This document shows positions 21,136-36,939 of a DNA stretch of 64,000 bases, one piece after another. The stretch lies in IMG/VR virus record IMGVR_UViG_3300009370_000001, one strand, 5' to 3'. The notes under the pieces are model-generated. The model was not told where the DNA came from, did no database searches, and worked only from the letters and a program-made list of their open reading frames with translations. Each line of letters opens with the position of its first letter. Position 1 is the first letter of the stretch. Source of the DNA: a virus (Duplodnaviria; Caudoviricetes). The translations under genes were made by a program, and so were the position numbers.

Positions 21136-21140
21136 ACCGC

Positions 21141-21169: not shown

Positions 21170-21175
21170 AAGAAT

Positions 21176-22020: not shown

Positions 22021-22262
22021 AACCAACACTTGAGTCTGGTGATATCATAATCCGTCGCGCAAGTAATGGTTGGATTGTATTTGTAGAATCAGAGCACGAG
22101 CCAGATCACTTTATCACTCTCCTTTATGAAATCCCCGACACTGAATTCGGGGAACAAGAGTGCTTTATGAACCTTTTAGGAGCAGAGTTCCCAGAGCAAT
22201 TTCAGTCAAAACATCGTGGCGGTATTCAAATGGAGTTGCGAACCAAGGGACGAGAGCATTAA
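22017..22262 (+). CDS. Hypothetical protein (81 aa)
   Basis: ATGA overlap with the previous stop (MKPTLESGDIIIRRASNGWIV...); preferred over the ORF-track start at 21981. Confidence 0.6.
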   Translation: MKPTLESGDIIIRRASNGWIVFVESEHEPDHFITLLYEIPDTEFGEQECFMNLLGAEFPEQFQSKHRGGIQMELRTKGREH

Positions 22263-22289
22263 GAAAAATATTGAAGTGATTGAAGAATA

Positions 22290-22511
22290 ATGAGCGAGAA
22301 CACCAAAAAAGAAGATTGGCAGAGACTAGAAATCACAGATGTGATCGACAATCCTGACGGAACTTCAACATTAGTTTTTGAACTCGAAGACGAGTTCAGA
22401 GAGTGGTTCAAGAAATCATTCGGATTAAAAAGGTGGAGCGACAAAAGGTTCGAGAAGGTGTTTCTTGAAGCAATTAGAGGCTATATAGAGAGGGAGACCG
22501 GAAAAGATTAA
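22290..22511 (+). CDS. Hypothetical protein (73 aa)
   Basis: Ends two bases before the second primase-end repeat; last gene of the inserted cassette. Confidence 0.55.
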   Translation: MSENTKKEDWQRLEITDVIDNPDGTSTLVFELEDEFREWFKKSFGLKRWSDKRFEKVFLEAIRGYIERETGKD

Positions 22512-22513
22512 TC

Positions 22514-22564
22514 TTTATCGATAGAGAAGACTATTTATTGATGAATTTACTCTCGGCAGTGTAG
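22514..22564 (+). repeat. Direct repeat copy 2: orphan primase 3' end (FIDREDYLLMNLLSAV*) containing an ACTATTTAT motif at 22530-22538
   Basis: Seven mismatches against copy 1: six synonymous (including TAA/TAG) and one D to E. Confidence 0.85.
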
Positions 22565-22574
22565 GAGAGCCCCG

Positions 22575-23633: not shown

Positions 23634-23637
23634 AAGC

Positions 23638-23666
23638 TTGACTCTTGCTTGACAATGAGTTATACT
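23638..23666 (+). promoter_or_regulatory. Sigma70-type promoter TTGACT-N17-TATACT
   Basis: -35 at 23638-23643 and -10 at 23661-23666; GGAGG RBS before the GTG at 23692. Confidence 0.75.
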
Positions 23667-23691
23667 ATAAGAGTATCTATGCGGAGGGTAC

Positions 23692-26600
23692 GTGAAGTTT
23701 GCACATATAAGTGATACTCATATCAAAAATCTGAAGTATCATTATGAATATCGAGTCATTTTTGAGCAGTTGTATGAAACGCTGCGGGAACAAAAAGTCG
23801 ATTACATTATACACTGTGGGGATATAGCCCACACCAAGACCCAGATCTCACCAGAGTTTGTTGAGATGTGTTCTGATTTTTTTCGCAGTCTCGCTGAGAT
23901 TGCACCAACCTATATCATTCTAGGAAACCATGACGGCAACCTAAAGAACAGCAGTCGTCAAGACGCACTGACACCGATTGTCGACGCGCTCAATCTGCCG
24001 ACACTGCACTTGCTTAAAGATTCAGGCGAGACTCATTTGAACGACGATTTCTGTTTGAATGTCTTGTCTGTTTTTGATCGAGACAACTGGATGAAGCCCA
24101 CCAATACTGACAAGATCAATATTGCACTTTATCATGGCTCAATCTCTAATTGTAAAACTGATACCAATTGGACGATGAGTTTTGGTGAAGATGATATATC
24201 TATCTTTGACGATTTTGATTTTTCTATGCTTGGTGATATTCACCGTCGCCAATTCCTAGATCACGATGGACGCGTTTGGTATGCTGGCTCAACTGTTCAG
24301 CAGAACCATGGCGAGACCAACGACAAAGGTATTCTCATTTGGGATATCAAATCTAAAGACGAATGGGACATTGAGCCGATTGTGTTTAAAAACCCTAAGC
24401 CGTTCTTTACAATCCCGCTCACACTCAAGGGGCGGATGCCTCGCAATCTCCAAGTACCCACTGGCGCACGCCTGCGATTGGTTAGTAACAATAACCTTCC
24501 GCTTAACACGATGCGCCGAGCAATGGACATTGCGAAGCATCGCTTTAAGCCCGAGAGCATCTCGTTTCTCAACAGAGCAGCAGGCGAGCGCGGTAATGTA
24601 GAAGATCTAACTGACGGTATTAAGACAGAAAACCTGCGAGACATTAAAGTCCAAGAAGAACTGATTGACGAGTTCCTTTCAGATTACCAGACCGATGCCA
24701 CAACCCTAGAGCGCGTGTTTGAGCTTAACAGCAAGTACAACAAGATTATCGAGGACCGAGAAGAGATCTCTAGAAACGTAAACTGGAGAATCAAGTCGTT
24801 TAAATGGGACAATCTGTTTAATTACGGAAAGGATAACTCCATCGACTTTGAAAACCTTAACGGCATCATTGGCGTTTTTGGAAAGAACTTCAGCGGCAAA
24901 TCTAGCATCATTGATGCGGCCCTGTATACATTGTTCAACACCACCTCAAAGAACGAGCGCAAAAACCTCAACGTTATTAATCAACATCAAGAATCTTGCG
25001 AAGGCGTTTTAGAGATCGAGATCGGACACAAAGTCTACAACATTAAGCGCACCTCTGAAAAATATACGAAACGCTTGAAAGGTGTTGAGACCTTAGAAGC
25101 CAAAACAGATTTGAACTTCGAAGTCTATGACCCTGTCACAGACGAGACAACATCCTTAAACGGCACCACACGCAATCAGACGGACGCAAATATTCGAAAG
25201 CACTTCGGGTCCATGGATGATTTTATGGTGTCTTCTCTGGCAAGCCAGCACGGTGCATTGGGATTCATTGATGAGGGTTCGACACGTCGAAAGGAAATCA
25301 TCGCCAAGTTCCTCGATTTGGAGCTGTTTGACCAAAAGTTTAAGATGGCCAAAGACGACTCTGTTGAGGCCAAGGCTCTCCTGCGCAAGTATGAGGATCG
25401 GGATTACAACACTGAGGTGCAGGCATTAGAAACCAGCTTGGAAGACTTGACTGTACAAGCGGAAACTAATCGCACAACTTGCGAGGATTATCGTAAAGAA
25501 CTTAAACTTCTGAACGAAGGAGCGAGACGCTTAGACGAGAAGATCAATTCTATTCCTGGCAAGCTTATTGACATCACAAAAGTCATGACAGAGCAAAAAG
25601 ATAAGCAAGTGTTGTCGAAGTTGTTGGAGGAGAAGATAACAAGCCAAACAGCACTGGCACTTGTCAAGCAGCAGAAAGTGGCAATATCAGAGAGCTTATT
25701 AGAGCTTATCGATCATGCCACCCTCACAGCCGACAAAGCAGAAATTGATACTTTAGATCATAGTATTATGAATCTTCGAGAAGAGATTGAAAAGATTGGC
25801 AAAAAGGAAAAGCTTTTGAAGAGTATCCCCTGCGGCGATTCTTATCCTTCGTGTCGATTTATCAAAGATGCCTATATTGACGTAGCTAACAAGCCAGGAA
25901 TTGAAGCAGACCTTCACGCGGCCGCTATGCGTTTAGAAACGTTGTCTCCTGACGACACAGCCGAAAAGCTTGAAGAGTATCGTTTAACGCAAGAACTGAT
26001 TGTAGAACTAAAGGCGGAAGTTGCCGCGCTGCAATTAGAATGCGAACGTAATAAGAACACAAAGGCCACAACTGATCAAGAATTGATCACTCTCACCACC
26101 AAGGTCGCTGAATATAAGCAAAACAAAAAGGTTATTGATGGACTTGAAAAAGTCATCAAAGAACGACAAGGTTACCAAACTAAGATCGAGACTAAAAAAG
26201 AAAAGATTGAAATCTGTGATAACGAGACATTAGAGATTGTACGACAGGTGGGTTCCTATGAAGAGAAGATTGAATCTCTCAAGGCTCAAAGTAAGGAGTA
26301 TCAAGACCTTCAGAATAGTTATGCGGCATACGATTTGCTTATGCAATGCATGCACCCTAACGGAATCGCTTACGATATTATCAAGAAAAAGATTCCAGTC
26401 ATTAACCAGGAGATTGCAAAAGTTCTCGCCAACATTGTTGAGTTCGAAGTGTTTTTTGAGACCAGCGGAAACAAGCTTGACATCTTTATTAAGCATCCTA
26501 AGCACGACGAACGGCCCATTGAAATGGCGTCAGGTGCAGAAAAGACAATGGCCGCGATGGCAATTCGTTTGGCTCTTTTAAGTGTTTCTTCACTTCCAAA

Positions 26601-26799
26601 GTCGGACTTGTTTATCCTCGATGAGCCGGGCACCGCATTGGACGAAGAAAATATGGAGGGTTTTATTAGGATCTTGGAACTAATTAAGGTATATTTTAAG
26701 AACGTTCTCTTGATCTCGCATTTAGACTCTCTCAAAGATTGCGTCGACATGCAGATTGTAATAGAAAAGAAAAAAGGCTACGCAAAGGTAAACCAATAA
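23692..26799 (+). CDS. Fused SbcD/Mre11 nuclease and SbcC/Rad50 ABC ATPase (T4 gp47+gp46-like)
   Basis: Metallophosphoesterase motifs HISDTH, HCGDIAH, ILGNHD, LGDIH, YAGS; then Walker A GKNFSGKSS, coiled coil, hook-like PCGDSYPSC, signature ASGAE, Walker B LFILDE, and LISH. Confidence 0.9.
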   Translation: MKFAHISDTHIKNLKYHYEYRVIFEQLYETLREQKVDYIIHCGDIAHTKTQISPEFVEMCSDFFRSLAEIAPTYIILGNHDGNLKNSSRQDALTPIVDALNLPTLHLLKDSGETHLNDDFCLNVLSVFDRDNWMKPTNTDKINIALYHGSISNCKTDTNWTMSFGEDDISIFDDFDFSMLGDIHRRQFLDHDGRVWYAGSTVQQNHGETNDKGILIWDIKSKDEWDIEPIVFKNPKPFFTIPLTLKGRMPRNLQVPTGARLRLVSNNNLPLNTMRRAMDIAKHRFKPESISFLNRAAGERGNVEDLTDGIKTENLRDIKVQEELIDEFLSDYQTDATTLERVFELNSKYNKIIEDREEISRNVNWRIKSFKWDNLFNYGKDNSIDFENLNGIIGVFGKNFSGKSSIIDAALYTLFNTTSKNERKNLNVINQHQESCEGVLEIEIGHKVYNIKRTSEKYTKRLKGVETLEAKTDLNFEVYDPVTDETTSLNGTTRNQTDANIRKHFGSMDDFMVSSLASQHGALGFIDEGSTRRKEIIAKFLDLELFDQKFKMAKDDSVEAKALLRKYEDRDYNTEVQALETSLEDLTVQAETNRTTCEDYRKELKLLNEGARRLDEKINSIPGKLIDITKVMTEQKDKQVLSKLLEEKITSQTALALVKQQKVAISESLLELIDHATLTADKAEIDTLDHSIMNLREEIEKIGKKEKLLKSIPCGDSYPSCRFIKDAYIDVANKPGIEADLHAAAMRLETLSPDDTAEKLEEYRLTQELIVELKAEVAALQLECERNKNTKATTDQELITLTTKVAEYKQNKKVIDGLEKVIKERQGYQTKIETKKEKIEICDNETLEIVRQVGSYEEKIESLKAQSKEYQDLQNSYAAYDLLMQCMHPNGIAYDIIKKKIPVINQEIAKVLANIVEFEVFFETSGNKLDIFIKHPKHDERPIEMASGAEKTMAAMAIRLALLSVSSLPKSDLFILDEPGTALDEENMEGFIRILELIKVYFKNVLLISHLDSLKDCVDMQIVIEKKKGYAKVNQ

Positions 26800-27707
26800 T
26801 GAAATTATTAATGGAAAATTGGCGAAAATTTGTCAATGAAACTGAAGAAAATCTTCACGAACTGGATAAGGGCGCGCTTTATGCGTTAAATAATCCAGGC
26901 ACTCCCTTGGCAACTTACGTCGCGGTACTTAAGAAATATGCGAATGATCCAGAATTTGATAAGATCGCCGGCGCAGGCCAAGCCGATGGCCAGCCGGCCG
27001 ATGAGGTGGCTAAGGTGCAGCCGGGCGCTATAGCTGCACAAGATCTCACAGCGACCCAAGCAGAAATTGGATTTGGAAATAGTCTGGCTGATCAGGTAGC
27101 TAATAAATACGACGCCACTAAAACTGCTCTTGGACTAAACGGATCTCCAATTGTTATGGCTTCGAAGTCAGGTCCAGTTCCAATTTTAGTATACAATGGA
27201 AAATATATTTTAGACGGGCATCACCGGTGGTCACAAATTATGATGGTCAATCCAGGTGGTACTGTTAAGGTCGACAATTTAACTGGACCCGCTATCGACA
27301 ATGAAGAAGAGGCTCTTAAGGTTATGCAATTCGCCATCGCTGCGACTGCTGACAAAGTAGTGACAAAGCCATTTGAGGGTGAAAATTTAATGCAAGCAAA
27401 CGAGCAACAAGTAGCGAACTTTGTTCTTAAAAATGTTACTGATGAAGTCTTGCAGCTTTTAGTTCAGGCTGAGAAGATTGAAAAACCAGATAAACGCCTC
27501 GCTGCCCAATATATTGCTGGTAATCTGCCGGTCATTAAGAAGTCTGCCGGCCGGTTCTCTCGCGAGAAAAGTATGCCTCAAGCCGGCGACTCTGGCGTTT
27601 CACAGGATGCGGTTAATCAAGCGCTTGGCACAGGCAAGGTTAACTTTGATAGCCCCAAGCCGGCCGACGCATATGGGAACCGCCCAGAGAAAAAAGCCGC
27701 AGAATAA
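26799..27707 (+). CDS. ParB/Srx-fold protein with an MKLLMENWRKFVNE leader
   Basis: LTATQAEI and PILVYNGKYILDGHHRW motifs; start at the TAATG overlap with the previous stop. Confidence 0.7.
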   Translation: MKLLMENWRKFVNETEENLHELDKGALYALNNPGTPLATYVAVLKKYANDPEFDKIAGAGQADGQPADEVAKVQPGAIAAQDLTATQAEIGFGNSLADQVANKYDATKTALGLNGSPIVMASKSGPVPILVYNGKYILDGHHRWSQIMMVNPGGTVKVDNLTGPAIDNEEEALKVMQFAIAATADKVVTKPFEGENLMQANEQQVANFVLKNVTDEVLQLLVQAEKIEKPDKRLAAQYIAGNLPVIKKSAGRFSREKSMPQAGDSGVSQDAVNQALGTGKVNFDSPKPADAYGNRPEKKAAE

Positions 27708-27722
27708 TAAACGGAGATTATA

Positions 27723-28850
27723 ATGAACAACCCTGACGATTTTGATTTTGCCGAGACAGCAACGGAAACCAATCCGCCTGCTCTCGAAACCCCTAAAACT
27801 AGTGAGTTCGACGACTTTGATTTCGTCGATCACTATGGAGACGATGAAGAAGTAACCCACGAGAATTTGCTTCCGGAGAACACTGTTCCCGCATCACTGA
27901 ACTGTGCCATTGTTGGCGTAGGTGGAGGTGGGGGCAAGATGGCCAAAGCCTTTCTCGATCTTGGCTACAACAGGACTCTGCTTGTTAATACCACTGCTAA
28001 AGATATCCCTGACGCTGTGGGTGATGAGCATGTGGTTTTGATTCCCGATGCCGATGGCATTGGAAAAGATGTGAATTTAGGAAAAGCTGTGTTTGATGCA
28101 AACAGTACAGTCGTAGAAGATGCCCTCCGCACAAAATTAGGCAAAGTTGACTGGCTGTTCGTTTGCGCTGGAGGTGGCGGTGGAACTGGTTCTGCCGTCG
28201 CTTCTCTACACAGCGTCTTTGAGCGCTACCTTAAGTCGGTACAAGCCGAAGGCGAGGTAGTATACATTACGTCGTGGCCGACCGCACAAGAATGCTTGAA
28301 TCCAACAATTAGCAAGAATGCGTTAGCTTTACTTAATGATGTTTCCCAGCACACTCACATCGTTTTGGACAACGAACGCCAAGTTAAATTGTTGCGCGGA
28401 AAGGTGGGGATGCTGAATCTGTTTCCTTCTGCCAACACGGCGTTTGCAAAGTTAATGACTCAAATTCTCAAACTCTCCAGCGATAAATCGCCGATTCAAT
28501 CGTTTGATACCAAAGATCTAGAAAGATGTTTGCGAACCCCACAAAGAATGTTTATTGGATCGACAATGGTAAAAGATCCCGCTACGCCAAACCTAGGCGC
28601 TACGATTCTTCAGAATTGTATGAAGCGTTCTCCGTGTCCCGCCCCCAAAGGTAAGCCCCAAACCGGCGCATTATTATTGATTGCGTCGTCTGAGATGGCA
28701 AACGATCCAGAGATTAGCAAACACATGGATGCAGCGATTGGATATGTTGGCGGCAGAACAGACACACTTTTTTCAGGTGTTTATATTAATGATAATGTAC
28801 CTGGGCTCGTTGCCATACTATGTATGAATGGGCTACCCAAAGGAAAATAA
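27723..28850 (+). CDS. Tubulin/FtsZ-family GTPase (PhuZ/TubZ-like) with an acidic N-terminal extension
   Basis: IVGVGGGGGKMA (T1), GIGKD, GGGGGTGS (tubulin signature), LDNE, NTAFA, and SFDTKDL at the T7-loop position. Confidence 0.85.
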   Translation: MNNPDDFDFAETATETNPPALETPKTSEFDDFDFVDHYGDDEEVTHENLLPENTVPASLNCAIVGVGGGGGKMAKAFLDLGYNRTLLVNTTAKDIPDAVGDEHVVLIPDADGIGKDVNLGKAVFDANSTVVEDALRTKLGKVDWLFVCAGGGGGTGSAVASLHSVFERYLKSVQAEGEVVYITSWPTAQECLNPTISKNALALLNDVSQHTHIVLDNERQVKLLRGKVGMLNLFPSANTAFAKLMTQILKLSSDKSPIQSFDTKDLERCLRTPQRMFIGSTMVKDPATPNLGATILQNCMKRSPCPAPKGKPQTGALLLIASSEMANDPEISKHMDAAIGYVGGRTDTLFSGVYINDNVPGLVAILCMNGLPKGK

Positions 28851-28853
28851 TAA

Positions 28854-29015
28854 ATGAGTACACCACGAGATTTAGCGCGAGATACATGGGCAAGAACGAA
28901 GCAGCTTGTTTTGCTTAACGGCGCATTAGAAGATTATGTCCTGCTCGCCGTTACGAAAGTAACGTGTTTGGCTATCGGACTTGCCGCTGGCTGGCACATG
29001 TGGGGAGGAGTATAA
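28854..29015 (+). CDS. Small membrane protein (53 aa), absent from the ORF track
   Basis: MSTPRDLARDTWARTKQLVLLNGALEDYVLLAVTKVTCLAIGLAAGWHMWGGV; fills the gap exactly. Confidence 0.6.
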   Translation: MSTPRDLARDTWARTKQLVLLNGALEDYVLLAVTKVTCLAIGLAAGWHMWGGV

Positions 29016-29360
29016 ATGAAAATCACCAAATCCCAATTGATGCAGATTATTAAAGAAGAAACATCTAGCTTAAACGAAATGCCGTATCGGCAAGGGGGTC
29101 GCCACGCCGGCTACGACGCCAATTGGCGCCGCACGTTTGGTGAGCCAGATCCCTCTCAAAAAGATACGGAAGCACAAGCCATTGCAGACATGGATGTGGG
29201 AATTGCGCGAGAGTTTGCGCAAGACGTTGTAGAATTTGTACGCCAGAATGTAGCTTCTGAGCAGGCACCAGCCCTGGCAGAAATGTCGATGGGGGACTTT
29301 TTGAGACTAGCTGCTGATTTAGCAGGCGATGAGCCGCTGGTAACACAAGTCGGAGAATAA
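29016..29360 (+). CDS. Putative head cargo protein with an MKITKSQLMQIIKEE leader
   Basis: GGAGG RBS; leader shared with 22575, 29362 and 33033. Confidence 0.7.
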   Translation: MKITKSQLMQIIKEETSSLNEMPYRQGGRHAGYDANWRRTFGEPDPSQKDTEAQAIADMDVGIAREFAQDVVEFVRQNVASEQAPALAEMSMGDFLRLAADLAGDEPLVTQVGE

Positions 29361-29361
29361 G

Positions 29362-29598
29362 ATGAAAGTAACCAAGTCCCAATTGATGCAGATCATCAAA
29401 GAGGAGATTACGAATATGAATCGTGGACTTCGAGAGTTTGCAGAATGGGTGATGGAAGTAAATGGACATATTGAAAGCTTGTCTGACGAATATGTATCGG
29501 CAGACGAATTGGCCACCGACGTTAATCTGTATGATTTATGGTACCAGGGAATCCCGGCTGCCGCGGCTGCGCAAGATCTTATAAGCGGTGACTATTGA
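29362..29598 (+). CDS. Putative head cargo protein with an MKVTKSQLMQIIKEE leader
   Basis: Leader nearly identical to 29016 at DNA level; acidic body. Confidence 0.7.
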   Translation: MKVTKSQLMQIIKEEITNMNRGLREFAEWVMEVNGHIESLSDEYVSADELATDVNLYDLWYQGIPAAAAAQDLISGDY

Positions 29599-29732
29599 TG
29601 AAGCTTTGGAATAAACTAAATCACTGGCTCGACTGGCGCGGCATTAAGTGGACCGACATTATCGGCTCGGGTGTAGCGTTTGGAACAATCATCGGACTAG
29701 TTATAGTATTAACCTGGGCAGGATTGCAATGA
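29598..29732 (+). CDS. Small membrane protein (44 aa), absent from the ORF track
   Basis: MKLWNKLNHWLDWRGIKWTDIIGSGVAFGTIIGLVIVLTWAGLQ; TGATG and ATGA overlaps at its ends. Confidence 0.6.
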   Translation: MKLWNKLNHWLDWRGIKWTDIIGSGVAFGTIIGLVIVLTWAGLQ

Positions 29733-29926
29733 GAGAAAGGCTTCGAAGGTTATGGAGTGTAGACGTGCTGGCTGTAGGGCTGGCATTACTTGCTTTGGCA
29801 TACGCGTGCTGTGTGCACCATCGAGCCCAAGAAAGATTGAATGAAATTGAAGGCGTGGTTAACGAAGGAATTCATATTCCGACACAGCCAACTCCACCAG
29901 TGAGGTTCGAACCAGAATGTCAATAA
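29729..29926 (+). CDS. Small single-TM protein (65 aa)
   Basis: MRERLRRLWSVDVLAVGLALLALAYACC...; start chosen by ATGA overlap. Confidence 0.55.
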   Translation: MRERLRRLWSVDVLAVGLALLALAYACCVHHRAQERLNEIEGVVNEGIHIPTQPTPPVRFEPECQ

Positions 29927-30921
29927 AGATTACAAAAAAGAAACTGATGGAAACTGTGGAGAAGGAAATGAAAAATGTCCTTCTAGAGACATATTTGCGC
30001 ATCCACCTTTCACAAGTTTTAACAGAGCGAACTGAGGGAATGTCGACTGCTAAAATTGAGGCGCTGCTCTCATCTGTGATTGACAATTTGGAGGGTATCG
30101 ATATGAGTATCGATTACCTCACTTCAGCGATAACTGGTCATGATCCATATTCTTTGGGGATCGCACAGAAGGTGGCCGGCCGCGGCGGCGGACGCTTCTC
30201 TCCTGTTCCATCCCCTCCGGAACAAGTCTCTGAAGCGGAAGAATTGTCGGAACTAAACCCTAATAAAACATTGGACCAACAAGAGCCCGAGGACTTTGAA
30301 GAGCCCGAGGAAGATCCTGACGCTTTAAGGTCCGATACAGTTTTAGGGGCCACCGGAAAATGGCCTGAAGAGCCTTCTGAGCCAGCGCAACAACGGCCTC
30401 CTCGTGAATATCGAAGTAAGGCCATTGAACTTTTGGCTTCGTTTCATGTAAATGTTGATCAGCAAGCTATAGATGCAGTGGCGTGGCAACTATACCACAA
30501 TGCCATGGGCGCCCCCACGCAGGCGATGGAAGAACCCCCGAAGAAACGAAAAAGATTTAAGTTTTTTGAAAACGTAGGAAAACGCCCTAATGCTGAGCTA
30601 CTAGCTTTATTGCGAACAATGTTGAAAACTGCCGAAGATCCTTATGCAGATGAACAACGACTCCTATCTTTAGGAGGTGAATTAGAAGACATGCTCGGCC
30701 AATTGGCGCCGGCAGCCGAGTGGGCCCAAGAGCAGGGCTATGACCGGCCTACATATAGTGAAAACCTACAGCAGTATATTAGAGAAGAACTCGAAGCTTA
30801 TTTGGAAGAAGAGGAAAAGAATAATCCTTGGGCCATATGCACTAGTTCTGTCGGCAGAGAAGATAAAGAAAAATATGAGAAATGCGTAAAAAGCATAAAA
30901 GCACAAAATAGAGGAAAATAA
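29917..30921 (+). CDS. Putative head-associated protein with a leader-like N-terminus
   Basis: MSIKITKKKLMETVEKEM leader, acidic/Pro linker, LQQYIREEL motif, and C-terminal NPWAIC...C module. Confidence 0.65.
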   Translation: MSIKITKKKLMETVEKEMKNVLLETYLRIHLSQVLTERTEGMSTAKIEALLSSVIDNLEGIDMSIDYLTSAITGHDPYSLGIAQKVAGRGGGRFSPVPSPPEQVSEAEELSELNPNKTLDQQEPEDFEEPEEDPDALRSDTVLGATGKWPEEPSEPAQQRPPREYRSKAIELLASFHVNVDQQAIDAVAWQLYHNAMGAPTQAMEEPPKKRKRFKFFENVGKRPNAELLALLRTMLKTAEDPYADEQRLLSLGGELEDMLGQLAPAAEWAQEQGYDRPTYSENLQQYIREELEAYLEEEEKNNPWAICTSSVGREDKEKYEKCVKSIKAQNRGK

Positions 30922-30922
30922 A

Positions 30923-31114
30923 ATGAGTGTATTAAGTAACTTATGGAATAGCACCGTCACAGCCGCAGGTCACGTATGGAGCGTTGCCCTGGATTTAGGA
31001 TGGTCAGTATGGCACGAAGTCAAAGATGGCATTAGTCGTTTAAGCTGGTGGTTATTGGTCGGATTGGTCTGGCTCGATGGACTAGCAGTAGGCTGGTGGC
31101 TGTGGAGTAGCTAG
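30923..31114 (+). CDS. Small Trp-rich membrane protein
   Basis: 63 aa with hydrophobic C-terminus WWLLVGLVWLDGLAVGWWLW. Confidence 0.6.
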   Translation: MSVLSNLWNSTVTAAGHVWSVALDLGWSVWHEVKDGISRLSWWLLVGLVWLDGLAVGWWLWSS

Positions 31115-31308
31115 TGGCTGAGCATAAAGGATTTTTAGATACGTGGTTGTTAAAGCTTACTTCTCGTAAGTTATTGGTATGGATAACTGCGTCTGCATTA
31201 GCCTTTACCGGGTATTTGACGAGCGGTGATTGGGTAGTTATTAGTACCGTCTTCATTGGCACCCAAGGTGCCGTCGACATTGTTGAGAGATTCAAGGGAC
31301 GCAAGTGA
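31114..31308 (+). CDS. Putative holin (two TM segments)
   Basis: 64 aa, SRKLLVWITASALAF and WVVISTVFIG helices, basic C-terminus, upstream of spanin-like genes. Confidence 0.5.
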   Translation: MAEHKGFLDTWLLKLTSRKLLVWITASALAFTGYLTSGDWVVISTVFIGTQGAVDIVERFKGRK

Positions 31309-31691
31309 CACCACAACAACTGATCATCCAGTTCTTAGTAAAGAATTGGAAAGGAGTATTGATCGTTCTTTTGTCTGGCGTAGTGATGGGCAAAATGCGC
31401 TATGACTATAAGCAGATGCAAGCGGCATACGAGGCTTCAGAACAATCTCTGCAAGCTCAGATTGCTGGACTGCAAGAGATCCACAAGAAGCAAATGGCGG
31501 ATATGGAAGAATCACTACAGGTCTACAAAGATACCTTAGATCAAGTAGAACAAGATTACCAAGAGAGCCAAGAAGAATTGCTCGAAGAGATCGAGAACCG
31601 TAGAGAAGAATACGGAAGACAATTCTCTCAAGACCCAGAAGAACTAGCGGAGACTATAATGTTAATGTACGGATTTAATTATGTTCCTTAG
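31305..31691 (+). CDS. Putative inner-membrane spanin (Rz-like)
   Basis: N-terminal TM (GVLIVLLSGVVMG) followed by a long coiled coil; overlaps both neighbours. Confidence 0.5.
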   Translation: MTPQQLIIQFLVKNWKGVLIVLLSGVVMGKMRYDYKQMQAAYEASEQSLQAQIAGLQEIHKKQMADMEESLQVYKDTLDQVEQDYQESQEELLEEIENRREEYGRQFSQDPEELAETIMLMYGFNYVP

Positions 31692-32100
31692 TCTATTATT
31701 AATGTTAACAGGCCCGGCCCAGGCCGAGGACGCAGGACAATTTACCTTTCTAGGGCACCAGCAGTGTGCCCCGTTTGAGGGTGTGCTTTTTGATGTGCCA
31801 GCGTTGTCTGAAATCATGGCGCGCCAGTCCACCGCCAATCTCGCATGCCAAGCACGAATTGACTATGAACTTTCAGTTGAAATTGCAAGCTACGAGCTAG
31901 AACTTCGCAATTGGGAGATTCAGTATAACGCCCTACATGAAGAAAGCAGTCTTCTGATCTTCCAGAAGGATGAAGAGATTGACCACCTTCAAAGAACTCT
32001 CTTGAAGCAATCCCCCCGCAATAATTGGATGTGGGCCGCCGGCGGTGTTGGAGTAGGAATCTTAAGCACCTATGCAGCCTATAGGCTGTTTAATGAGTGA
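31681..32100 (+). CDS. Secreted or membrane coiled-coil protein, possible spanin partner
   Basis: Sec signal ending PAQA with no lipobox Cys, coiled coil, and a C-terminal hydrophobic segment. Confidence 0.45.
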   Translation: MFLSLLLMLTGPAQAEDAGQFTFLGHQQCAPFEGVLFDVPALSEIMARQSTANLACQARIDYELSVEIASYELELRNWEIQYNALHEESSLLIFQKDEEIDHLQRTLLKQSPRNNWMWAAGGVGVGILSTYAAYRLFNE

Positions 32101-32482
32101 TAAAGATTTCGATAAATTAGCTGCGATAGAGCAGGCTATTTCCCAAAAATATGGCAAAGAAGCAATTCAAAACCCACGCGCAAATTGGGACGAGACCAAA
32201 GAGAAAGAATATCTTGTACAAATGCGAGAGTTATATAAAAAAACAGATAAGAATGAAACCTTCCAAGAGAAAATAGATGTAAATGGCATAAAGGTTTCAA
32301 AGAAACTATTTAATAGAGATTCTTTACAACATTGTTCTGTGTGTTCTGCGCTAGCGCGAAAGGTACTGGATGATGTTTGTTTTCTAAAATTTGATTGCTG
32401 CCATAAATGCTATGTTAAATATGTAGAAGATAGAGAAGAAAGATGGGAACAAGGTTGGAGACCACAAAAAGGAAATAAATAA
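32093..32482 (+). CDS. Hypothetical protein with a CxxC...CxxC zinc site
   Basis: MSDKDFDKLAAIEQAI...HCSVC...CCHKCY...EERW; start at 32093 overlaps the previous gene's end. Confidence 0.65.
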   Translation: MSDKDFDKLAAIEQAISQKYGKEAIQNPRANWDETKEKEYLVQMRELYKKTDKNETFQEKIDVNGIKVSKKLFNRDSLQHCSVCSALARKVLDDVCFLKFDCCHKCYVKYVEDREERWEQGWRPQKGNK

Positions 32483-33036
32483 TGGCAACAGTTTACGAAA
32501 TCGTACAAGGCTTAGCACAAGCCGCCGCTAATGCATATGATGGCGCGTTAGGAGAAGACTACGAGCCTGATAAGCCCGGTATTCTTCGCCGAGAAGAGGG
32601 TAATGCCCTCATCGATCAACGAGTGATGGATGGCTTCAATGTGAAGTTTTATGGGAATATGATGTGCCTTAGCTATCAATCAGAAATCCAACTTAAAGAA
32701 GTTATCGCCGGCGGCTTTGAGGAAGATATCGATCAGCGCCTCACTGACATTTCAGGATGGCTTAAGAAAGAATACAAAAAGATTACTGGCGATTCGGTCA
32801 GCCTGACGGCCGAGGGTGAAGTAGATATCCGCGTGGAAAATTCTTCTCGGGTACGAACCTGGGTAGTGGCGAAGAAGCACTATCGTGTGGGTGGCTTGGA
32901 CGAATCTATGAATGATGATAATCGAGGTTCCACCAATCCTGTGGAAGCCAAATGGAAGACCTTTTTAGATCAAGGCGGCTGGAATGGTAAAGGCGGCACG
33001 CGCCCCGATAACGATACGAGGAAGAAAGAATCATGA
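32482..33036 (+). CDS. Hypothetical protein
   Basis: 184 aa, AAGGA RBS, coupled to its neighbours. Confidence 0.65.
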   Translation: MATVYEIVQGLAQAAANAYDGALGEDYEPDKPGILRREEGNALIDQRVMDGFNVKFYGNMMCLSYQSEIQLKEVIAGGFEEDIDQRLTDISGWLKKEYKKITGDSVSLTAEGEVDIRVENSSRVRTWVVAKKHYRVGGLDESMNDDNRGSTNPVEAKWKTFLDQGGWNGKGGTRPDNDTRKKES

Positions 33037-33377
33037 AAATTTCGATTGCACGACTCAAAGAGATTATTATGGAAGAAGTTGCGGGAGCAACCACTGAAGG
33101 TCACGATAAAGATTGGGGTATGGGCAAGGACGAAAAGTCTCGCACCCGACCCGGAGAAGAAGATTATACCGGGCACAAGGGAGACGAGTCTCATACGCAC
33201 CCCGGAGAACTGGATTATGAACATGATGGAGAAGATCTCGAAGGAAAAGCCAACCGCGTTCTCGCAGACTTACATGATGTAATGACGGCCGCAGGCCTTA
33301 ATGTTGATCTAACTGCGGATGTAAGCGATGATGATATCGAAGCCGAAGAAGAAATAGAAATCGTAGATGATGAATGA
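33033..33377 (+). CDS. Acidic putative head cargo protein with an MKISIARLKEIIMEE leader
   Basis: Leader variant; internal near-repeat RPGEEDY / HPGELDY. Confidence 0.65.
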   Translation: MKISIARLKEIIMEEVAGATTEGHDKDWGMGKDEKSRTRPGEEDYTGHKGDESHTHPGELDYEHDGEDLEGKANRVLADLHDVMTAAGLNVDLTADVSDDDIEAEEEIEIVDDE

Positions 33378-34960
33378 GTTTTCAATTAGACAAGAAACAG
33401 CAAGTCAACGAGATTCTGAAATGCGGTAAAGACCCAGCTTACTTTCTCACAAACTATGCTCGTATCTCTCACCCAATGCATGGGTTGATTTTATTTGATA
33501 CATATGATTTTCAAGATGCGCTCCTAAATGACTTTAATGATTATCGCTTTAATGTCATCCTTAAAGCACGTCAGCTTGGCATCTCTACAATCACAGCCGG
33601 CTATATCGTATGGATGATGCTATTTCATCGCGATAAGGCCATTTTAGTTATGGCAACCAAGTTCGCCACCGCCGGCAACCTCGTCAAAAAGGTTAAAGGT
33701 ATCATGCGCAATGTACCAGACTGGCTAAAGATTGCAACAATCAGCGTTGACAACCGCACATCTTTCGAGTTGTCCAATGGTTCCTCTATTAAAGCCGCGT
33801 CCACTTCGGGCGATGCCGGTCGTTCCGAAGCACTGTCTCTTTTGGTTCTCGACGAGGCCGCCCACATCGAAGGCTTAGAAGAATTATGGACTGGTCTATA
33901 TCCGACGTTGTCCACAGGTGGGCGTTGTATTGCGTTGTCTACCCCAAATGGTGTGGGAAACTGGTTTCACAAGACCTGTACCGAAGCAGATTCTGGAGTA
34001 AACAATTTTAATTTAACGACGTTACCGTGGGATGTCCACCCAGATCGAGATGAACAATGGTACACTAAAGAAACAAGAAACATGTCCAAGCGCCAGATTG
34101 CACAAGAATTACAATGTAATTTCAACACGTCTGGTGAAACAGTGATTGATCCCGAATGTATGGAATGGCTGCTATCGAATGTTAAAGAGCCCAAACATCG
34201 CACGGGATTTGACCGTAATTTTTGGATTTGGGAAGAATTTGATCCTACCTGTAATTATTTGATGGTGGTGGATGTATCTCGTGGCGATGGCGCCGATTTT
34301 TCTACATTTCATATTGTCAAATTAGAAACCTTAGAAGTCATCGGAGAATATCAAGGAAAACTAACTCCTGATTTATTTGCTAACATGCTTAATCAAGTCG
34401 GCCGAGAGTTTGGAAATGCGATGATGGTAGTAGAAAATAATAATATTGGCTATACAGTACTTGACAAACTTGTAGAATACGGTTATCCTAATATATATTA
34501 TTCTATAAAGTCAACGCATGAATATATTGAGCAACATCAAGCTGAATATAAAACTAACACGATTGCCGGCTTCTCTACTACACAGAAGACCCGACCTTTA
34601 ATAGTTGCAAAATTAGAAGAGTTTATAAGAAATAAACTAATTAAAGTGTATTCATCCCGCACGGTTAATGAAATGAAAACTTTTATTTGGAAAAATGGAA
34701 AGCCTCAAGCTATGAAGAGTTATAATGATGATTTGATTATGGCTTTAGCAATTGCATGTTGGGTGCGTGACACTGCTATTCAAACTAATGCACGTGATTT
34801 AAACTATCAGAAGGCGTTCGTAGATGCAATTATTACGACACGCACTACGATGAACACGACTATTTCGGGCCAACAGGGGTACAAACAAGAGAATGCCCTA
34901 GATAAAAAAACGACAGAGGCGGCAAAACTTTATGAACAATATAAATGGATTATTAAGTGA
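33374..34960 (+). CDS. terL: Terminase large subunit
   Basis: LKARQLGIST (Walker A), LLVLDEAA (Walker B), STPNG (C-motif), VDVSRGDGADFS and DDLIMALA nuclease acids. Confidence 0.95.
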   Translation: MSFQLDKKQQVNEILKCGKDPAYFLTNYARISHPMHGLILFDTYDFQDALLNDFNDYRFNVILKARQLGISTITAGYIVWMMLFHRDKAILVMATKFATAGNLVKKVKGIMRNVPDWLKIATISVDNRTSFELSNGSSIKAASTSGDAGRSEALSLLVLDEAAHIEGLEELWTGLYPTLSTGGRCIALSTPNGVGNWFHKTCTEADSGVNNFNLTTLPWDVHPDRDEQWYTKETRNMSKRQIAQELQCNFNTSGETVIDPECMEWLLSNVKEPKHRTGFDRNFWIWEEFDPTCNYLMVVDVSRGDGADFSTFHIVKLETLEVIGEYQGKLTPDLFANMLNQVGREFGNAMMVVENNNIGYTVLDKLVEYGYPNIYYSIKSTHEYIEQHQAEYKTNTIAGFSTTQKTRPLIVAKLEEFIRNKLIKVYSSRTVNEMKTFIWKNGKPQAMKSYNDDLIMALAIACWVRDTAIQTNARDLNYQKAFVDAIITTRTTMNTTISGQQGYKQENALDKKTTEAAKLYEQYKWIIK

Positions 34961-34968
34961 GATTATAA

Positions 34969-36939
34969 ATGGCAATTCAAGATAAAAACCCAGCAAACTC
35001 TGAAACGAGCTTATTCAAAGCGTTAACGCGTCTCTTCTCGGGTCCCATTGTTAACTATCGTTCTCAATCGGGACGTCGCATTCGGCGTCAACATTTAGAT
35101 AAATTTTCCTCTCGCTTTAAATCGGCATCGGGGCAACAGTTTAAAAAGACACTTTATAATCCTTTAGATGTTATTGCTACAAATGCGATTCAAAACCAAC
35201 GACGTTCAGAGCGTTATGTAGATTTTGATCAGATGGAATATATGCCTGAAATCGCATCTACGATGGACATCTATGCAGATGAGATGACAACATATTCTGA
35301 ACTGCGCCCGATGCTTAATGTCCGATGTCCTAATGAAGAAATTAGTGCGGTACTGGATGTCTTATTTGATAGCATCCTTAACTTAAAATACAATCTTTTT
35401 GGTTGGGCCCGCACGATGTGTAAATATGGTGATTTTTTCCTGTATGTTGATATCGATGACAAATATGGAGTGACATCTGTTCTACCGCTCCCGGCCCAAG
35501 AAGTTGAAAGACTAGAAGGTAAAGATGCCACCAACCCGAATTATGTGCAGTTTCAGTGGAACTCTGCTGGGATGACCTTTGAAAACTGGCAAGTTGCCCA
35601 TTTCCGCATCTTAGGAAATGATAAGTACATTCCGTATGGAACATCAATTTTGGAGCCAGCACGACGCATTTGGCGCCAGCTAGTGTTGATGGAAGATGCT
35701 ATGATGGCATATCGTGTTATCCGTTCTTCTGAGCGCCGAGTGTTTAAGATTGATGTCGGTTCTATTCCTCCCAATGAAGTCGAACAGTATATGGAAAAAA
35801 TTGTGACCAACCTTAAGCGTCATCAAGTTATTGATCCTGAAAACGGACGTGTGGATTTGCGATACAACCCAATGTCTATCGAAGAAGATTATTTCATCCC
35901 AGTTCGCGCTGGCTCGGTCACAGAGATCAAGAACCTCGCCGGCGGCACCAACACTACCGATATTGATGATATCAAGTATTTGCGTGATAAGCTTTTTTCC
36001 GCACTCAAGATACCTCAATCTTATCTAACGATGGGAGAAGGTGCCGAAGAAGACAAGACTACTCTTGCGCAGAAAGACATTCGTTTTGCAAGAACCATTC
36101 AGAGACTCCAAAGAGTTATTATCGCAGAGCTTACAAAGATTGGTATCATCCATCTGTACACATTAGGCTTCAGAGGCGACGACTTATTAAGCTTCAGCTT
36201 AACTCTCAATAACCCGTCCAAGATTGCAGAACTTCAAGAAATTGAGACCTGGAAGCAGAAGTTCGACATTGCCGCTGCAGCCACAGAAGGTTATTTCTCA
36301 CGGCGCTGGGTGTCCGAACATATCTTTGGTATGAATCATGAAGACTTTGGTCGCAATCAACGCGAAATGTATTATGATCGTAAGCACGACGCCGCTCTTC
36401 AGGCAGTCGCTGAAGCTGCTGCAGCCGAAGGCGCCGGCGGCGGAATGGGAGGCGATCTGGGGGGAGACCTTGGAGGCGATCTCGGAGGCGATCTCGGAGG
36501 AGATCTTGGTGGTGATCTTGGCGGAGGCGAGGAAATGCCCGCAGGTGAAGCCGGCGGTGATGAGGGAGGTGGCGATGATTCAGCGCTCCTAGCCGTCCCA
36601 CCCGGCTCTCGTAACGAGCCTCGTCTGACCCCTGGAGCAAAGGGAAAAGTATATTATCCTAAGAAGGTTGATGGCCGACCAGCAGGAGCCCGGACGCGCT
36701 CTATGGGCGCGAAGTACAATCGAGAAAAAGCTAGCTCGGCTATTCGGAATGTTGTCCCAGGCGCTGAGATCGGTTCCCTCGCAAAGATGGGCAGCTTGGG
36801 AAATGGTATTTATGAAGGACAAGCACCTATTTATAACGCAAGTGAGCTTTCTGAAGAAGAAAAGCTTTTTCACGTAAGCGATTCGATACGGGCGCTCCTT
36901 AAAGGATTAGAAGGATTGGAGAATAATAATGAAGGGTAG
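34969..36939 (+). CDS. gp20: Portal protein (T4 gp20-like)
   Basis: Follows terL; YGTSILEPARRIWRQLVLMEDAMMAYRVIR, RVFKIDVG, EEDYFIP, DIKYLRDKLFSALKIP, and QKDIRFARTIQRLQ. Confidence 0.93.
   Translation: MAIQDKNPANSETSLFKALTRLFSGPIVNYRSQSGRRIRRQHLDKFSSRFKSASGQQFKKTLYNPLDVIATNAIQNQRRSERYVDFDQMEYMPEIASTMDIYADEMTTYSELRPMLNVRCPNEEISAVLDVLFDSILNLKYNLFGWARTMCKYGDFFLYVDIDDKYGVTSVLPLPAQEVERLEGKDATNPNYVQFQWNSAGMTFENWQVAHFRILGNDKYIPYGTSILEPARRIWRQLVLMEDAMMAYRVIRSSERRVFKIDVGSIPPNEVEQYMEKIVTNLKRHQVIDPENGRVDLRYNPMSIEEDYFIPVRAGSVTEIKNLAGGTNTTDIDDIKYLRDKLFSALKIPQSYLTMGEGAEEDKTTLAQKDIRFARTIQRLQRVIIAELTKIGIIHLYTLGFRGDDLLSFSLTLNNPSKIAELQEIETWKQKFDIAAAATEGYFSRRWVSEHIFGMNHEDFGRNQREMYYDRKHDAALQAVAEAAAAEGAGGGMGGDLGGDLGGDLGGDLGGDLGGDLGGGEEMPAGEAGGDEGGGDDSALLAVPPGSRNEPRLTPGAKGKVYYPKKVDGRPAGARTRSMGAKYNREKASSAIRNVVPGAEIGSLAKMGSLGNGIYEGQAPIYNASELSEEEKLFHVSDSIRALLKGLEGLENNNEG
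36448..36519 (+). repeat. Degenerate 12-bp tandem repeat x6 encoding (GGDL)6
   Basis: Directly visible in the portal C-terminal low-complexity tail. Confidence 0.85.

What the first reader, a model, noticed from the sequence alone, without database searches (positions are those of the whole stretch)
27723..28850. Phage tubulin/FtsZ with an acidic N-terminal DDFDF-repeat arm and no C-terminal tail
GTP-binding motifs are intact and the T7 loop reads SFDTKDL, keeping the catalytic Asp position. The C-terminal tail that PhuZ, TubZ and FtsZ use for polymer or partner contacts is missing. Instead about 55 N-terminal residues carry DDFDF twice, reminiscent of acidic-aromatic docking peptides. The gene lies between a DNA-repair gene and a membrane/lysis cluster, so it could position capsids, organise lysis sites or poison host FtsZ.
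Basis: partly seen in the sequence, partly recalled or inferred. Interest (0 to 1): 0.65.

Follow-up and report, generated by a model that had tools for sequence, protein, structure and literature searches.

The report
Tail-less phage tubulin with N-terminal docking arm
A 203-kb uncultured marine T4-like phage carries an intact but very divergent relative of tubulin/FtsZ, from a large virus-only family whose short conserved docking peptide sits on a floppy acidic arm at the front of the protein instead of the back, so phages with no "phage nucleus" probably also build their own filaments.

Summary
ORF 27723-28850 (+, 375 aa) is a complete two-domain tubulin/FtsZ-fold GTPase. The AF2 core has pLDDT >96; the best structural matches are CetZ2 (Z 32.4), TubZ/RepX (32.1) and FtsZ (~28). 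The T1 and T4 loops are intact. The T7 Asp262 is invariant in 95/95 relatives and Asp265 is acidic in 94/95. The protein ends four residues after the last strand, and residues 1-45 are predicted disordered (arm net charge -16).

Only the second DDFDF is family-wide. It is the local form of a motif D-[FLI]-[P/D]-x-[VIL] that aligns across the wider family, under purifying selection. The first DDFDF occurs only in the closest clade.

It is not PhuZ: hhalign probability is 0.3%, and the complete genome has no chimallin. It is not a TubZRC module: there is no fixed neighbour and no iterons. It is not an FtsZ equivalog: 37 bits against a cut-off of 295.

The gene is an accessory single-gene cassette. 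It sits at three different junctions of the virion-morphogenesis block, and complete related phages lack it.

Best reading: a GTP-driven self-assembling filament whose partner-docking peptide is N-terminal. Function is untested.

This scan has already noted the same family several times on other DNA. I found no paper describing it.

The parts
27723..28850 (+). Tubulin/FtsZ-superfamily GTPase gene (375 aa, P0001)
   Evidence: ORF. Pfam PF00091 35.1 bits against cut-off 33. AF2 pLDDT 92, pTM 0.86. VIA Z 32.4 CetZ2, 32.1 RepX/TubZ, ~28 FtsZ.
27713..27716 (+). Shine-Dalgarno GGAG, 6 nt before the ATG
   Evidence: Sequence. Homologues in other contexts have GGAG/AGGA at the same distance.
27723..27896 (+). 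Disordered acidic N-terminal arm (aa 1-58; net charge -16 over the 57 residues scored)
   Evidence: pLDDT 53-61 with no secondary structure. Charge computed. Length upstream of the motif varies from 1 to 58 aa among homologues.
27735..27749 (+). First DDFDF (aa 5-9), clade-specific second copy of the motif
   Evidence: Present only in L001-L013 and P0002-P0013.
27810..27836 (+). Conserved docking-type motif DDFDFVDHY (aa 30-38), the local form of the family motif D-[FLI]-[P/D]-x-[VIL]
   Evidence: D31, F32, F34 and H37 invariant in 26 homologues. Synonymous codon variation. The column aligns across the 95-sequence family. Arms of distant members are enriched for hydrophobic-[D/E]-hydrophobic-[PDEG]: 35/66 against 13.9 expected from shuffles.
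27915..27938 (+). T1 loop GVGGGGGK (aa 65-72)
   Evidence: G65 94/95; G67 and G70 95/95.
28170..28193 (+). T4 tubulin signature GGGGGTGS (aa 150-157)
   Evidence: G152-G154 90-94/95; G156 95/95.
28476..28517 (+). T7 loop and start of H8 (aa 252-265) with Asp262 and Asp265
   Evidence: Loop between H7 (230-251) and H8 (263-271) in the model. D262 95/95; D265 D85/E9 of 95.
26799..27707 (+). Upstream neighbour: leader-tagged (MKLLMENW...) ParB-like protein; not a fixed partner
   Evidence: Pfam ParBc_2 only E 0.069. Of 19 loci with a full-length homologue, 9 have a tubulin nearby and 10 do not. Absent from most tubulin loci.
23692..26799 (+). Fused SbcD-SbcC nuclease (context anchor)
   Evidence: phrog_77 5e-56, phrog_100 8e-30, Metallophos and SMC_N.
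28854..31308 (+). Variable block of small genes downstream: four membrane-type ORFs (28854, 29595, 30923, 31114) and three leader-tagged ORFs (29016, 29362, 29917)
   Evidence: Translations. The 53-aa ORF starting 3 nt after the tubulin stop is conserved only in the near clade.
31305..31691 (+). Rz-like spanin candidate
   Evidence: phrog_1152 4e-6.
33374..36939 (+). Large terminase and T4-type portal (gp20), showing that the gene lies in the morphogenesis block
   Evidence: phrog_2 1e-52. PF07230 Portal_T4 2e-76.
22531..22538 (+). Nearest upstream copy of the candidate late-type promoter motif CTATTTAY
   Evidence: 16 matches in the window against 5.45 expected; no shuffle reaches 16; 14 on the + strand, several about 30 nt before genes of the virion block. 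The same motif lies directly upstream of the tubulin gene in 12/72 other contexts, against 6.3% of other gene starts.

Best explanation
The gene encodes a GTP-dependent, self-polymerising filament protein of the tubulin/FtsZ superfamily. It belongs to a large, virus-only and so far unnamed family. The gene is carried as an optional single-gene cassette inside the late (virion morphogenesis) block of uncultured marine T4-like phages.

Shown: a complete two-domain tubulin fold; an intact nucleotide pocket; family-wide invariance of the T7 acidic residues, which in this superfamily act only on the GTP of the neighbouring subunit in a polymer; no C-terminal tail; and a disordered acidic N-terminal arm carrying a short conserved motif.

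Inferred: the protein forms filaments. The N-terminal motif (DFDFV here, D-hydrophobic-P-x-hydrophobic in the wider family) does the job that C-terminal tails do in FtsZ, TubZ and PhuZ. That job is either to dock the filament to a partner or surface, or to clamp the next subunit. The near-neutral core (pI about 8, against 4.5 for the E. coli FtsZ core) beside an arm of net charge -16 is compatible with arm-to-core contacts in trans.

Because the N-terminus lies on the opposite face from the C-terminus in FtsZ, a filament tethered by its N-terminus would face its cargo with the other side. Gene position, and a late-type promoter motif in front of the gene in other phages, suggest that it acts late. 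A plausible role is organising where capsids, DNA packaging or lysis machinery sit in the cell. No phage nucleus is involved.
For: Fold and family placement:
- AF2 pLDDT is 92 and the core is >96.
- Foldseek E-values are 1e-20 to 1e-18 to FtsZ, CetZ and TubZ.
- VIA Z is 32.4 (CetZ2 4b45), 32.1 (RepX 4ei7), 31.9 (TubZ 2xka) and about 28 (FtsZ).
- The family profile hits RepX at 4e-41, CetZ-like 3zid at 6e-35 and M. jannaschii FtsZ at 3e-33.

Catalytic residues: G67, G70, D94, G156, N238 and D262 are 95/95; D265 is acidic in 94/95.

Arm:
- It is predicted disordered.
- The motif is invariant with synonymous codon changes.
- It aligns across the wide family and is enriched against shuffles.
- Charge contrast between arm and core.

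Virus-only distribution:
- Only 3 hits on 2.7-4.7 kb MAG contigs among 185,579 species genomes.
- Atlas look-alike clusters are 87-100% viral.
- More than 1000 90%-clusters and 611 50%-clusters.

Accessory and mobile:
- Three placements.
- 41/73 relatives have it in the SbcCD slot.
- Complete relatives of 191 and 183 kb have none.

T4-like phage without a nucleus:
- gp23-type capsid protein and T4 portal.
- No chimallin, with a positive control on phiKZ.

Other:
- Late-type promoter motif.
- Opposite-face geometry of an N-terminal tether: Osawa and Erickson 2011, as summarised in PMC5797765.
Against: - No polymerisation, GTPase or localisation data exist for any member.
- AF2 of the monomer does not dock the motif anywhere, so no binding site is identified.
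- No conserved neighbouring gene marks a partner.
- Placement in the late block may only reflect permissive insertion sites.
- The 'late' nature of the CTATTTAY motif is inferred from gene positions alone. In this window the nearest copy is 5 kb upstream, and a sigma-70-like site (23638-23666) also lies upstream.
- Many distant family members do have short C-terminal extensions. The swap of tail from back to front is therefore clean only in this subfamily.
Confidence: 0.6

Rival explanations
1. Divisome hijack or interference. The N-terminal peptide imitates the C-terminal anchor peptide of host FtsZ and binds host FtsA/ZipA/SepF/MinC-type partners. The phage filament would then either displace FtsZ and block division, or use the host's membrane anchors.
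For: The wide-family motif D-[ILF]-P-[DE]-[LIV] matches the first five residues of the E. coli FtsZ tail peptide D-I-P-A-F, read from L083. Phages commonly block host division with other, small proteins (for example P1 Icd, PMC11897509, listed). The gene is accessory, as host-manipulation genes often are.
Against: The match covers five residues of low information. In this subfamily the Pro is replaced (DFDFV), and the basic residues that follow in FtsZ are acidic here. The host is unknown. Identity to FtsZ is only 16-20%, so co-polymerisation is unlikely. A pure inhibitor would not need T7 acids that are invariant across the family.
Confidence: 0.13
2. The arm is not a docking peptide. It is instead an autoinhibitory or solubilising acidic 'bristle' that folds back on the near-neutral core and controls when filaments form, or it is a propeptide removed by the prohead protease.
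For: Strong charge contrast between arm (-16) and core (+2, pI about 8). The arm is disordered. In one gene arrangement the tubulin gene lies directly upstream of the head maturation protease.
Against: A pure bristle would not keep an invariant nine-residue motif under purifying selection. The arm lacks the MK..-type leader tags carried by the neighbouring genes.
Confidence: 0.12
3. A type III (TubZRC-like) partition system that segregates the phage genome as a plasmid-like prophage, with the upstream ParB-like protein acting as the DNA adaptor.
For: The best profile match is the pXO1 partition GTPase RepX. TubZ has Z 32. A ParB-like gene sits directly upstream here and in some relatives.
Against: The ParB-like gene is absent from most tubulin loci, and in 10 of 19 loci it occurs without a tubulin nearby. 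There are no iteron or centromere-like repeats. The protein has no C-terminal tail, which TubZ uses to bind TubR. The phage is T4-like with direct terminal repeats.
Confidence: 0.05
4. An ordinary PhuZ spindle that centres a phage nucleus.
For: It is a phage tubulin in a genome just over 200 kb. There is a weak partial hit to phrog_4733 (E 5e-3).
Against: hhalign against phiKZ PhuZ gives probability 0.3%. PF22334 is not hit, whereas phiKZ PhuZ hits it at 2e-37. PhuZ is not among the listed hits (best 60) of the PDB profile search or the top 50 structural matches. No chimallin was found with phrog_4795 or PF25677 in the complete genome, with a valid positive control. The virion genes are T4-type.
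Confidence: 0.02

Closest known systems
TubZ / RepX (type III partition GTPases of Bacillus plasmids pXO1 and pBtoxis, and Clostridium phage c-st; PDB 4ei7, 2xka, 4xcq)
   Same: Same two-domain fold: Z 32.1 and 31.9, rmsd 2.4 A over 306-312 residues. Best family-profile match, 4e-41. Encoded on a mobile element or virus. Some wider-family look-alike clusters carry the TubZ-like C-terminal Pfam domain.
   Different: 17-19% identity. No long C-terminal helix or tail. No TubR adaptor gene and no centromere repeats. The conserved peptide is N-terminal. Carried by lytic-type T4-like phages.
CetZ (archaeal cell-shape tubulin/FtsZ proteins; PDB 4b45, 4b46, 3zid)
   Same: Top structural match (Z 32.4 for CetZ2) and best single-sequence match over the full length (3zid, 1.3e-8).
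   Different: 19-22% identity. Virus-only distribution. No C-terminal tail. N-terminal acidic arm.
FtsZ
   Same: T1, T4 and T7 chemistry, including the D-x-x-D of T7/H8. The only NCBIfam model hit is TIGR00065, matched by 55 of 57 family members. Z about 28.
   Different: 37 bits against the 295-bit equivalog cut-off. No linker plus C-terminal anchor peptide. Core pI about 8 against 4.5. Not a cellular gene.
PhuZ (phiKZ-like nucleus-forming phages)
   Same: A phage-encoded tubulin-superfamily protein that relies on a terminal acidic-hydrophobic peptide. The phiKZ PhuZ tail was read.
   Different: No detectable profile similarity. Its C-terminal domain family is not hit. The peptide is at the other end of the protein. 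No chimallin and no phiKZ-type genes in the genome.
FtsZ/tubulin-like GTPase of Bacillus phage G (ps43; PMC12484599)
   Same: The only relative of the wider family in 50,697 deposited phage genomes: 24.6% identity to P0166, E 2e-11. Also uncharacterised.
   Different: Not detectably similar to this subfamily by tblastn. Different phage lineage and host.

Membership tests
Tubulin/FtsZ superfamily (PF00091) | N-terminal nucleotide-binding domain with a Gly-rich T1 loop and the GGGTG[ST]G T4 signature | tested here: met
   GVGGGGGK and GGGGGTGS are present. PF00091 scores 35.1 bits against cut-off 33. The columns are conserved in 95 relatives.
Tubulin/FtsZ superfamily (PF00091) | Second (activation) domain joined by core helix H7, with acidic T7-loop residues | tested here: met
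   The AF2 model has H7 at 230-251, T7 at 252-262 and H8 at 263-271. Z is 28-32 over about 290-312 residues to FtsZ, CetZ and TubZ. D262 is 95/95 and D265 is acidic in 94/95.
Tubulin/FtsZ superfamily (PF00091) | GTP-dependent head-to-tail polymerisation | not testable with these tools
   Inferred only from conserved pocket and T7 residues. Needs biochemistry or EM.
PhuZ | Sequence membership (phrog_4733; Pfam PF22334 phage tubulin C-terminal domain) | tested here: not met
   phrog_4733 gives E 5e-3 over aa 62-161 only, against 5e-118 for phiKZ PhuZ. PF22334 is not hit. hhalign probability is 0.3%.
PhuZ | C-terminal acidic tail that clamps the next subunit | tested here: not met
   The protein ends 4 residues after the last strand.
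PhuZ | Carried by chimallin-encoding (nucleus-forming) phages | tested here: not met
   No hit to phrog_4795 or PF25677 in the complete 203-kb genome. The same search finds phiKZ gp054 at 2e-232.
TubZ (TubZRC type III partition) | Adjacent TubR-type DNA-binding adaptor gene | tested here: not met
   No gene cluster is a constant neighbour in 83 loci. The ParB-like gene is optional.
TubZ (TubZRC type III partition) | Centromere of tandem iterons next to the operon | tested here: not met
   No repeat arrays in 21000-33500.
TubZ (TubZRC type III partition) | Long C-terminal helix/tail needed for filament formation and TubR binding | tested here: not met
   Absent. The Pfam TubZ C-terminal domains are not hit.
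FtsZ | Scores above the TIGR00065 equivalog cut-off | tested here: not met
   37.1 bits against 295.2.
FtsZ | Disordered C-terminal linker ending in the conserved anchor peptide | tested here: not met
   There is no C-terminal extension.
CetZ | Member of the archaeal CetZ clade | tested here: inconclusive
   It is the top structural and single-sequence match, but at 19-22% identity. The family is virus-only. No named CetZ sequences were available for a tree.

The most novel reading that the evidence does not exclude
The N-terminal peptide (D-hydrophobic-P-x-hydrophobic in the wide family, DFDFV here) is a viral copy of the FtsZ C-terminal anchor peptide, moved to the opposite face of the subunit. 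Late in infection the phage filament would plug into the host's own FtsZ anchors (FtsA, ZipA or SepF type) or another surface 'inside-out'. It would then bend the other way round its cargo than FtsZ does, and take over or replace the division ring to shape the cell or arrange virion assembly and lysis sites.
Probability: 0.1. Interest if true: 0.85.

Novelty: new variant of a known kind. Interest (0 to 1): 0.6.

Why it matters
Phage cytoskeletons are known mainly from nucleus-forming phiKZ-like phages (PhuZ) and from plasmid-like prophages (TubZ). Here a third, large and apparently undescribed viral tubulin family appears in abundant ocean T4-like phages that build no nucleus, and its interaction peptide is at the opposite end of the protein.

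If these proteins form filaments, spatial organisation of infection by a virus-made cytoskeleton is much more widespread than is now thought. The natural N-terminal tether would also be a ready-made test of how tether position sets filament polarity and bending relative to a cargo. Until now this has been probed only with engineered FtsZ.

Tried and rejected
- **PhuZ / phage-nucleus reading.** Rejected.
- **TubZRC partition module.** No constant neighbour and no iterons.
- **ParB-like gene as partner.** Rejected as obligate: it is absent from most tubulin loci, and in 10 of 19 loci it occurs without a tubulin nearby.
- **Downstream start codon removing the arm.** Rejected.
- **Arm peptide as a T4-style sliding-clamp or SSB-tip-like peptide shared with replication proteins.**
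  - No other protein of the genome has a terminal DFDF-like motif.
  - No family-B polymerase was detected at all.
  - I dropped the idea as unsupported.
- **T4 late promoter TATAAATA.** Not enriched on the coding strand: 9 matches against 3.65 expected, mostly the reverse complement of the CTATTTAT motif.
- **tblastn of the protein against 50,697 deposited phages.** No hit.
- **Superfamily tree with named CetZ and TubZ references.** Not possible with the sequences I could obtain. The tree I built has only E. coli FtsZ and phiKZ PhuZ as outsiders, and the PhuZ branch (length 9.95) is too long to place.
- **The search for related loci with the diverse alignment A2** failed for lack of a conserved stretch.
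- **Fused or longer forms** (over 657 aa) were not searched.
- **Literature searches** found no description of this family. The FtsZ/tubulin survey PMC9871819 does not mention phages. Weinheimer and Aylward 2022 report tubulin only in phiKZ-like marine phages.
Full report
**1. The observation**

The ORF at 27723-28850 (+) encodes 375 residues. A GGAG lies 6 nt before the ATG.
- DDFDF occurs at residues 5-9 and 30-34.
- The T1 loop reads GVGGGGGK (65-72) and the T4 signature reads GGGGGTGS (150-157).
- Pfam Tubulin (PF00091) is just above its cut-off, 35.1 against 33 bits.
- PHROGs gives only an unnamed family (phrog_17961, 6e-5) and a weak partial PhuZ hit (5e-3).

An AlphaFold2 model built on a 95-sequence alignment has mean pLDDT 92 and pTM 0.86.
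- Residues from about 48 to 372 are above 96.
- Residues 1-45 score 53-61 with no secondary structure.
- The core helix (H7) is 230-251, the following loop is 252-262 and H8 is 263-271.
- The last strand is 362-371 and the chain ends at 375, so there is no C-terminal tail.

Across 95 relatives at 22-95% identity, Asp262 is invariant and Asp265 is D or E in 94. The nucleotide-pocket residues G67, G70, D94, G156 and N238 are also invariant.

**2. The arm**

In 26 close homologues (62-95% identity), D31, F32, F34 and H37 are invariant. Every protein ends two to seven residues after the last strand.

In 51 loci the motif reads [D/S/E/N]-D-F-[D/G]-F-[V/I]-x-H-[Y/F].
- Synonymous codon variation is free (GAT/GAC, TTT/TTC, CAC/CAT).
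- The distance from the motif to the C-terminus is constant at 343-348 residues.
- The segment upstream of the motif varies from 1 to 58 residues.
- Many proteins simply begin M-S-D-F-D-F.

The conserved element is therefore the second DDFDF with its V-D-H-Y extension. The first DDFDF is found only in the closest clade (L001-L013). Other clades have different extra acidic-aromatic bits upstream.

Shine-Dalgarno sequences sit before the same start in several gene contexts, and the next Met is inside the T1 loop/helix H1. A downstream start that removes the arm is excluded.

In the wider family (22-36% identity) the aligned columns read D (60/95), F/L/I (73/95), P or D (73/95), F/D/E (62/95) and V/I/L (66/95). 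The arms of distant members are enriched for hydrophobic-[D/E]-hydrophobic-[P/D/E/G]: 35 of 66, against 13.9 in shuffles with a maximum of 22. Typical forms are FDIP, LDIP, IDLP and FEVP. The peptide is thus an old, family-wide short linear motif on an acidic disordered arm.

Many distant members also keep a 10-30 residue C-terminal extension. The DFDF clade has lost it. That clade is strongly supported (SH-aLRT 100) and sits on a long stem of 2.06 changes per column.

The 57 arm residues scored have net charge -16. The core has +2 (pI about 8), against -19 (pI 4.5) for the E. coli FtsZ core and -12 for phiKZ PhuZ.

**3. What family it is**

*Single-sequence and family searches*
- Best solved relative: the CetZ-like protein 3zid (1.3e-8, full length). 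FtsZs follow at about 1e-6.
- With the 95-sequence profile: pXO1 RepX/TubZ (4e-41), 3zid (6e-35), M. jannaschii FtsZ (3e-33), CetZ2 (3e-32) and phage c-st TubZ (4e-31). PhuZ is not among the best 60.
- The only NCBIfam hit is FtsZ TIGR00065, at 37 bits against a cut-off of 295.

*Structure comparison*
- Foldseek gives FtsZ, CetZ and TubZ at 1e-20 to 1e-18.
- VIA-align gives CetZ2 Z 32.4, RepX 32.1, TubZ 31.9, CetZ1 30.6, 3zid 30.2 and FtsZ about 28, at 16-22% identity.

*Against PhuZ*
- hhalign of the close family against phiKZ PhuZ gives probability 0.3%.
- PhuZ's own C-terminal domain family, PF22334, is not hit.

The protein is therefore a distinct lineage roughly equidistant from TubZ, CetZ and FtsZ. 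It is not PhuZ.

**4. Distribution**

- The 90%-cluster search returned more than 1000 relatives, mostly from marine metagenomes (Tara, JGI, ENA). JGI calls some of them 'cell division GTPase FtsZ'.
- The exhaustive search found 611 50%-clusters at E up to 1e-3 and 218 at 1e-10.
- Among one genome for each of 185,579 prokaryote species, only three hits appeared. All are on 2.7-4.7 kb contigs of metagenome bins, so they are probably phage DNA that was binned with the genome.
- ESM Atlas look-alike clusters are 87-100% viral.
- No deposited phage genome contains this subfamily.
- The wider family has one relative, the uncharacterised FtsZ/tubulin-like gene of Bacillus phage G (PMC12484599).

**5. 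The phage and the gene's surroundings**

The window is part of a complete 203,204-bp virus record with direct terminal repeats. The phage has:
- a gp23-type capsid protein (window 50022-51812);
- a T4-type portal (34969-36939);
- a large terminase;
- a tail sheath.

The closest cultured terminases are from Flavobacterium and Microcystis myophages, at 43-46% identity. Neither chimallin profile finds anything in the genome, while the same search recovers phiKZ gp054. There is only one tubulin-type gene.

Locally the order is:
1. fused SbcD-SbcC;
2. a leader-tagged ParB-like gene (Pfam ParBc_2 only at E 0.069);
3. the tubulin gene;
4. small membrane and leader-tagged ORFs;
5. an Rz-like spanin;
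6. terminase and portal.

Across 80 related loci the tubulin gene occupies three different junctions:
- after SbcCD, as here;
- between a portal-proximal gene and the head maturation protease;
- directly upstream of the head-tail adaptor.

No gene cluster is a constant neighbour.

Of 73 relatives anchored on SbcCD, 41 carry the tubulin in that slot and 32 do not. Two complete relatives (191 and 183 kb) have none anywhere.

The ParB-like gene is next to a tubulin in 9 of 19 loci and is without one in 10. It is an independent cassette. No iteron arrays lie nearby.

A motif CTATTTAY is over-represented in the window: 16 matches against 5.45 expected, 14 of them on the coding strand. It lies about 30 nt before several genes of the virion block. 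In other phages the same motif sits directly before the tubulin gene, often after a terminator-like hairpin: 12 of 72 contexts, against 6.3% of other gene starts. This suggests late expression but does not prove it.

**6. Mechanism**

*Shown:* an intact tubulin fold and nucleotide pocket; invariant T7 acids; no C-terminal tail; a disordered acidic N-terminal arm carrying a selected short motif; a virus-only, accessory, mobile gene in the late block of a T4-like phage with no nucleus shell.

*Inferred from established knowledge of the superfamily:* T7 acids act on the GTP of the adjoining subunit. Their invariance therefore argues for GTP-driven homopolymer filaments.

In FtsZ, TubZ and PhuZ a terminal peptide on a flexible tail binds anchors (FtsA/ZipA), adaptors (TubR) or the next subunit. 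Here the only candidate for that role is the N-terminal motif.

In FtsZ the two termini lie on opposite faces. Moving an artificial membrane tether to the N-terminal side makes rings assemble on the outside of liposomes instead of the inside (Osawa and Erickson 2011, as summarised in PMC5797765). A filament held by its N-terminus would therefore face its cargo with the other side. What the cargo is remains unknown.

I put about 0.6 on 'self-assembling filament with an N-terminal docking peptide'. I put much less on any particular cellular role.

**7. Relation to earlier notes of this scan**

The scan has already flagged this family on other genomes, and the follow-up agents reached similar conclusions. 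I re-derived the main points independently:
- tail-first architecture;
- virus-only distribution;
- accessory and mobile status;
- the ParB-like gene not being a partner.

I add the following:
- family-wide alignment of the motif;
- loss of the C-terminal extension specifically in the DFDF clade;
- the charge contrast between arm and core;
- the three morphogenesis-block junctions;
- the late-type motif.

**Limits**

No experiment exists for any member. Named CetZ and TubZ sequences for a proper superfamily tree were not available.

Noticed in passing
window 26799-26840, 29016-29059, 29362-29405, 29917-29990: The genes flanking the tubulin carry short shared N-terminal leaders on unrelated bodies: MKLLMENWRKF... 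on one, MK[IV]TKSQLMQIIKEE... on others. The leaders at 29016 and 29362 are 86% identical in DNA over 44 nt. The tubulin itself has no such leader.
   Followed up: partly
window 16098, 22531, 41526, 45372/45402, 48766, 60136 (+ strand): Motif CTATTTAY is enriched in the window: 16 matches against 5.45 expected, with no shuffle reaching 16. It lies about 15-45 nt upstream of several genes in the virion block. It is a candidate late promoter that differs from T4's TATAAATA.
   Followed up: partly
window 21099-21135 and 22528-22564: A roughly 32-nt element, GACTATTTAYTSATGAATTTACTCTCGGCAGT, occurs twice 1.4 kb apart. One copy lies just before a perfect sigma-70 consensus promoter (21141-21169) and the other before the gene at 22575.
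   Followed up: no
G000 whole genome (203,204 bp): No family-B DNA polymerase (PF00136) was detected in this complete genome, although its capsid and portal are T4-type. The replication module therefore seems not to be T4-like.
   Followed up: no
window 23692-26799: SbcD and SbcC are fused into one 1035-aa polypeptide. The fusion is conserved in at least 78 related viral contigs.
   Followed up: partly
L160 (G003:C1:139877-140149) and L161 (G005:C1:23231-23494): Related phages that lack this tubulin have a 299-aa ORF with a weak match (E 5e-7 and 2e-6) to the middle of the family profile. This may be a second, stripped-down tubulin-like lineage.
   Followed up: no
L034-L038, L042, L053, L058 (about 30-60 nt upstream of the tubulin start); L018, L026: In other phages the tubulin gene is preceded by a GC-rich hairpin plus a T-run (terminator-like). 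The gene then follows with its own motif or ribosome-binding site, as expected for a self-contained cassette.
   Followed up: partly
L168 and L170: In two loci the same SbcCD-to-terminase slot holds a distant member of the wider tubulin family (26-27% identity) together with a ParB-like gene. The slot has therefore been filled more than once by different tubulin lineages.
   Followed up: no
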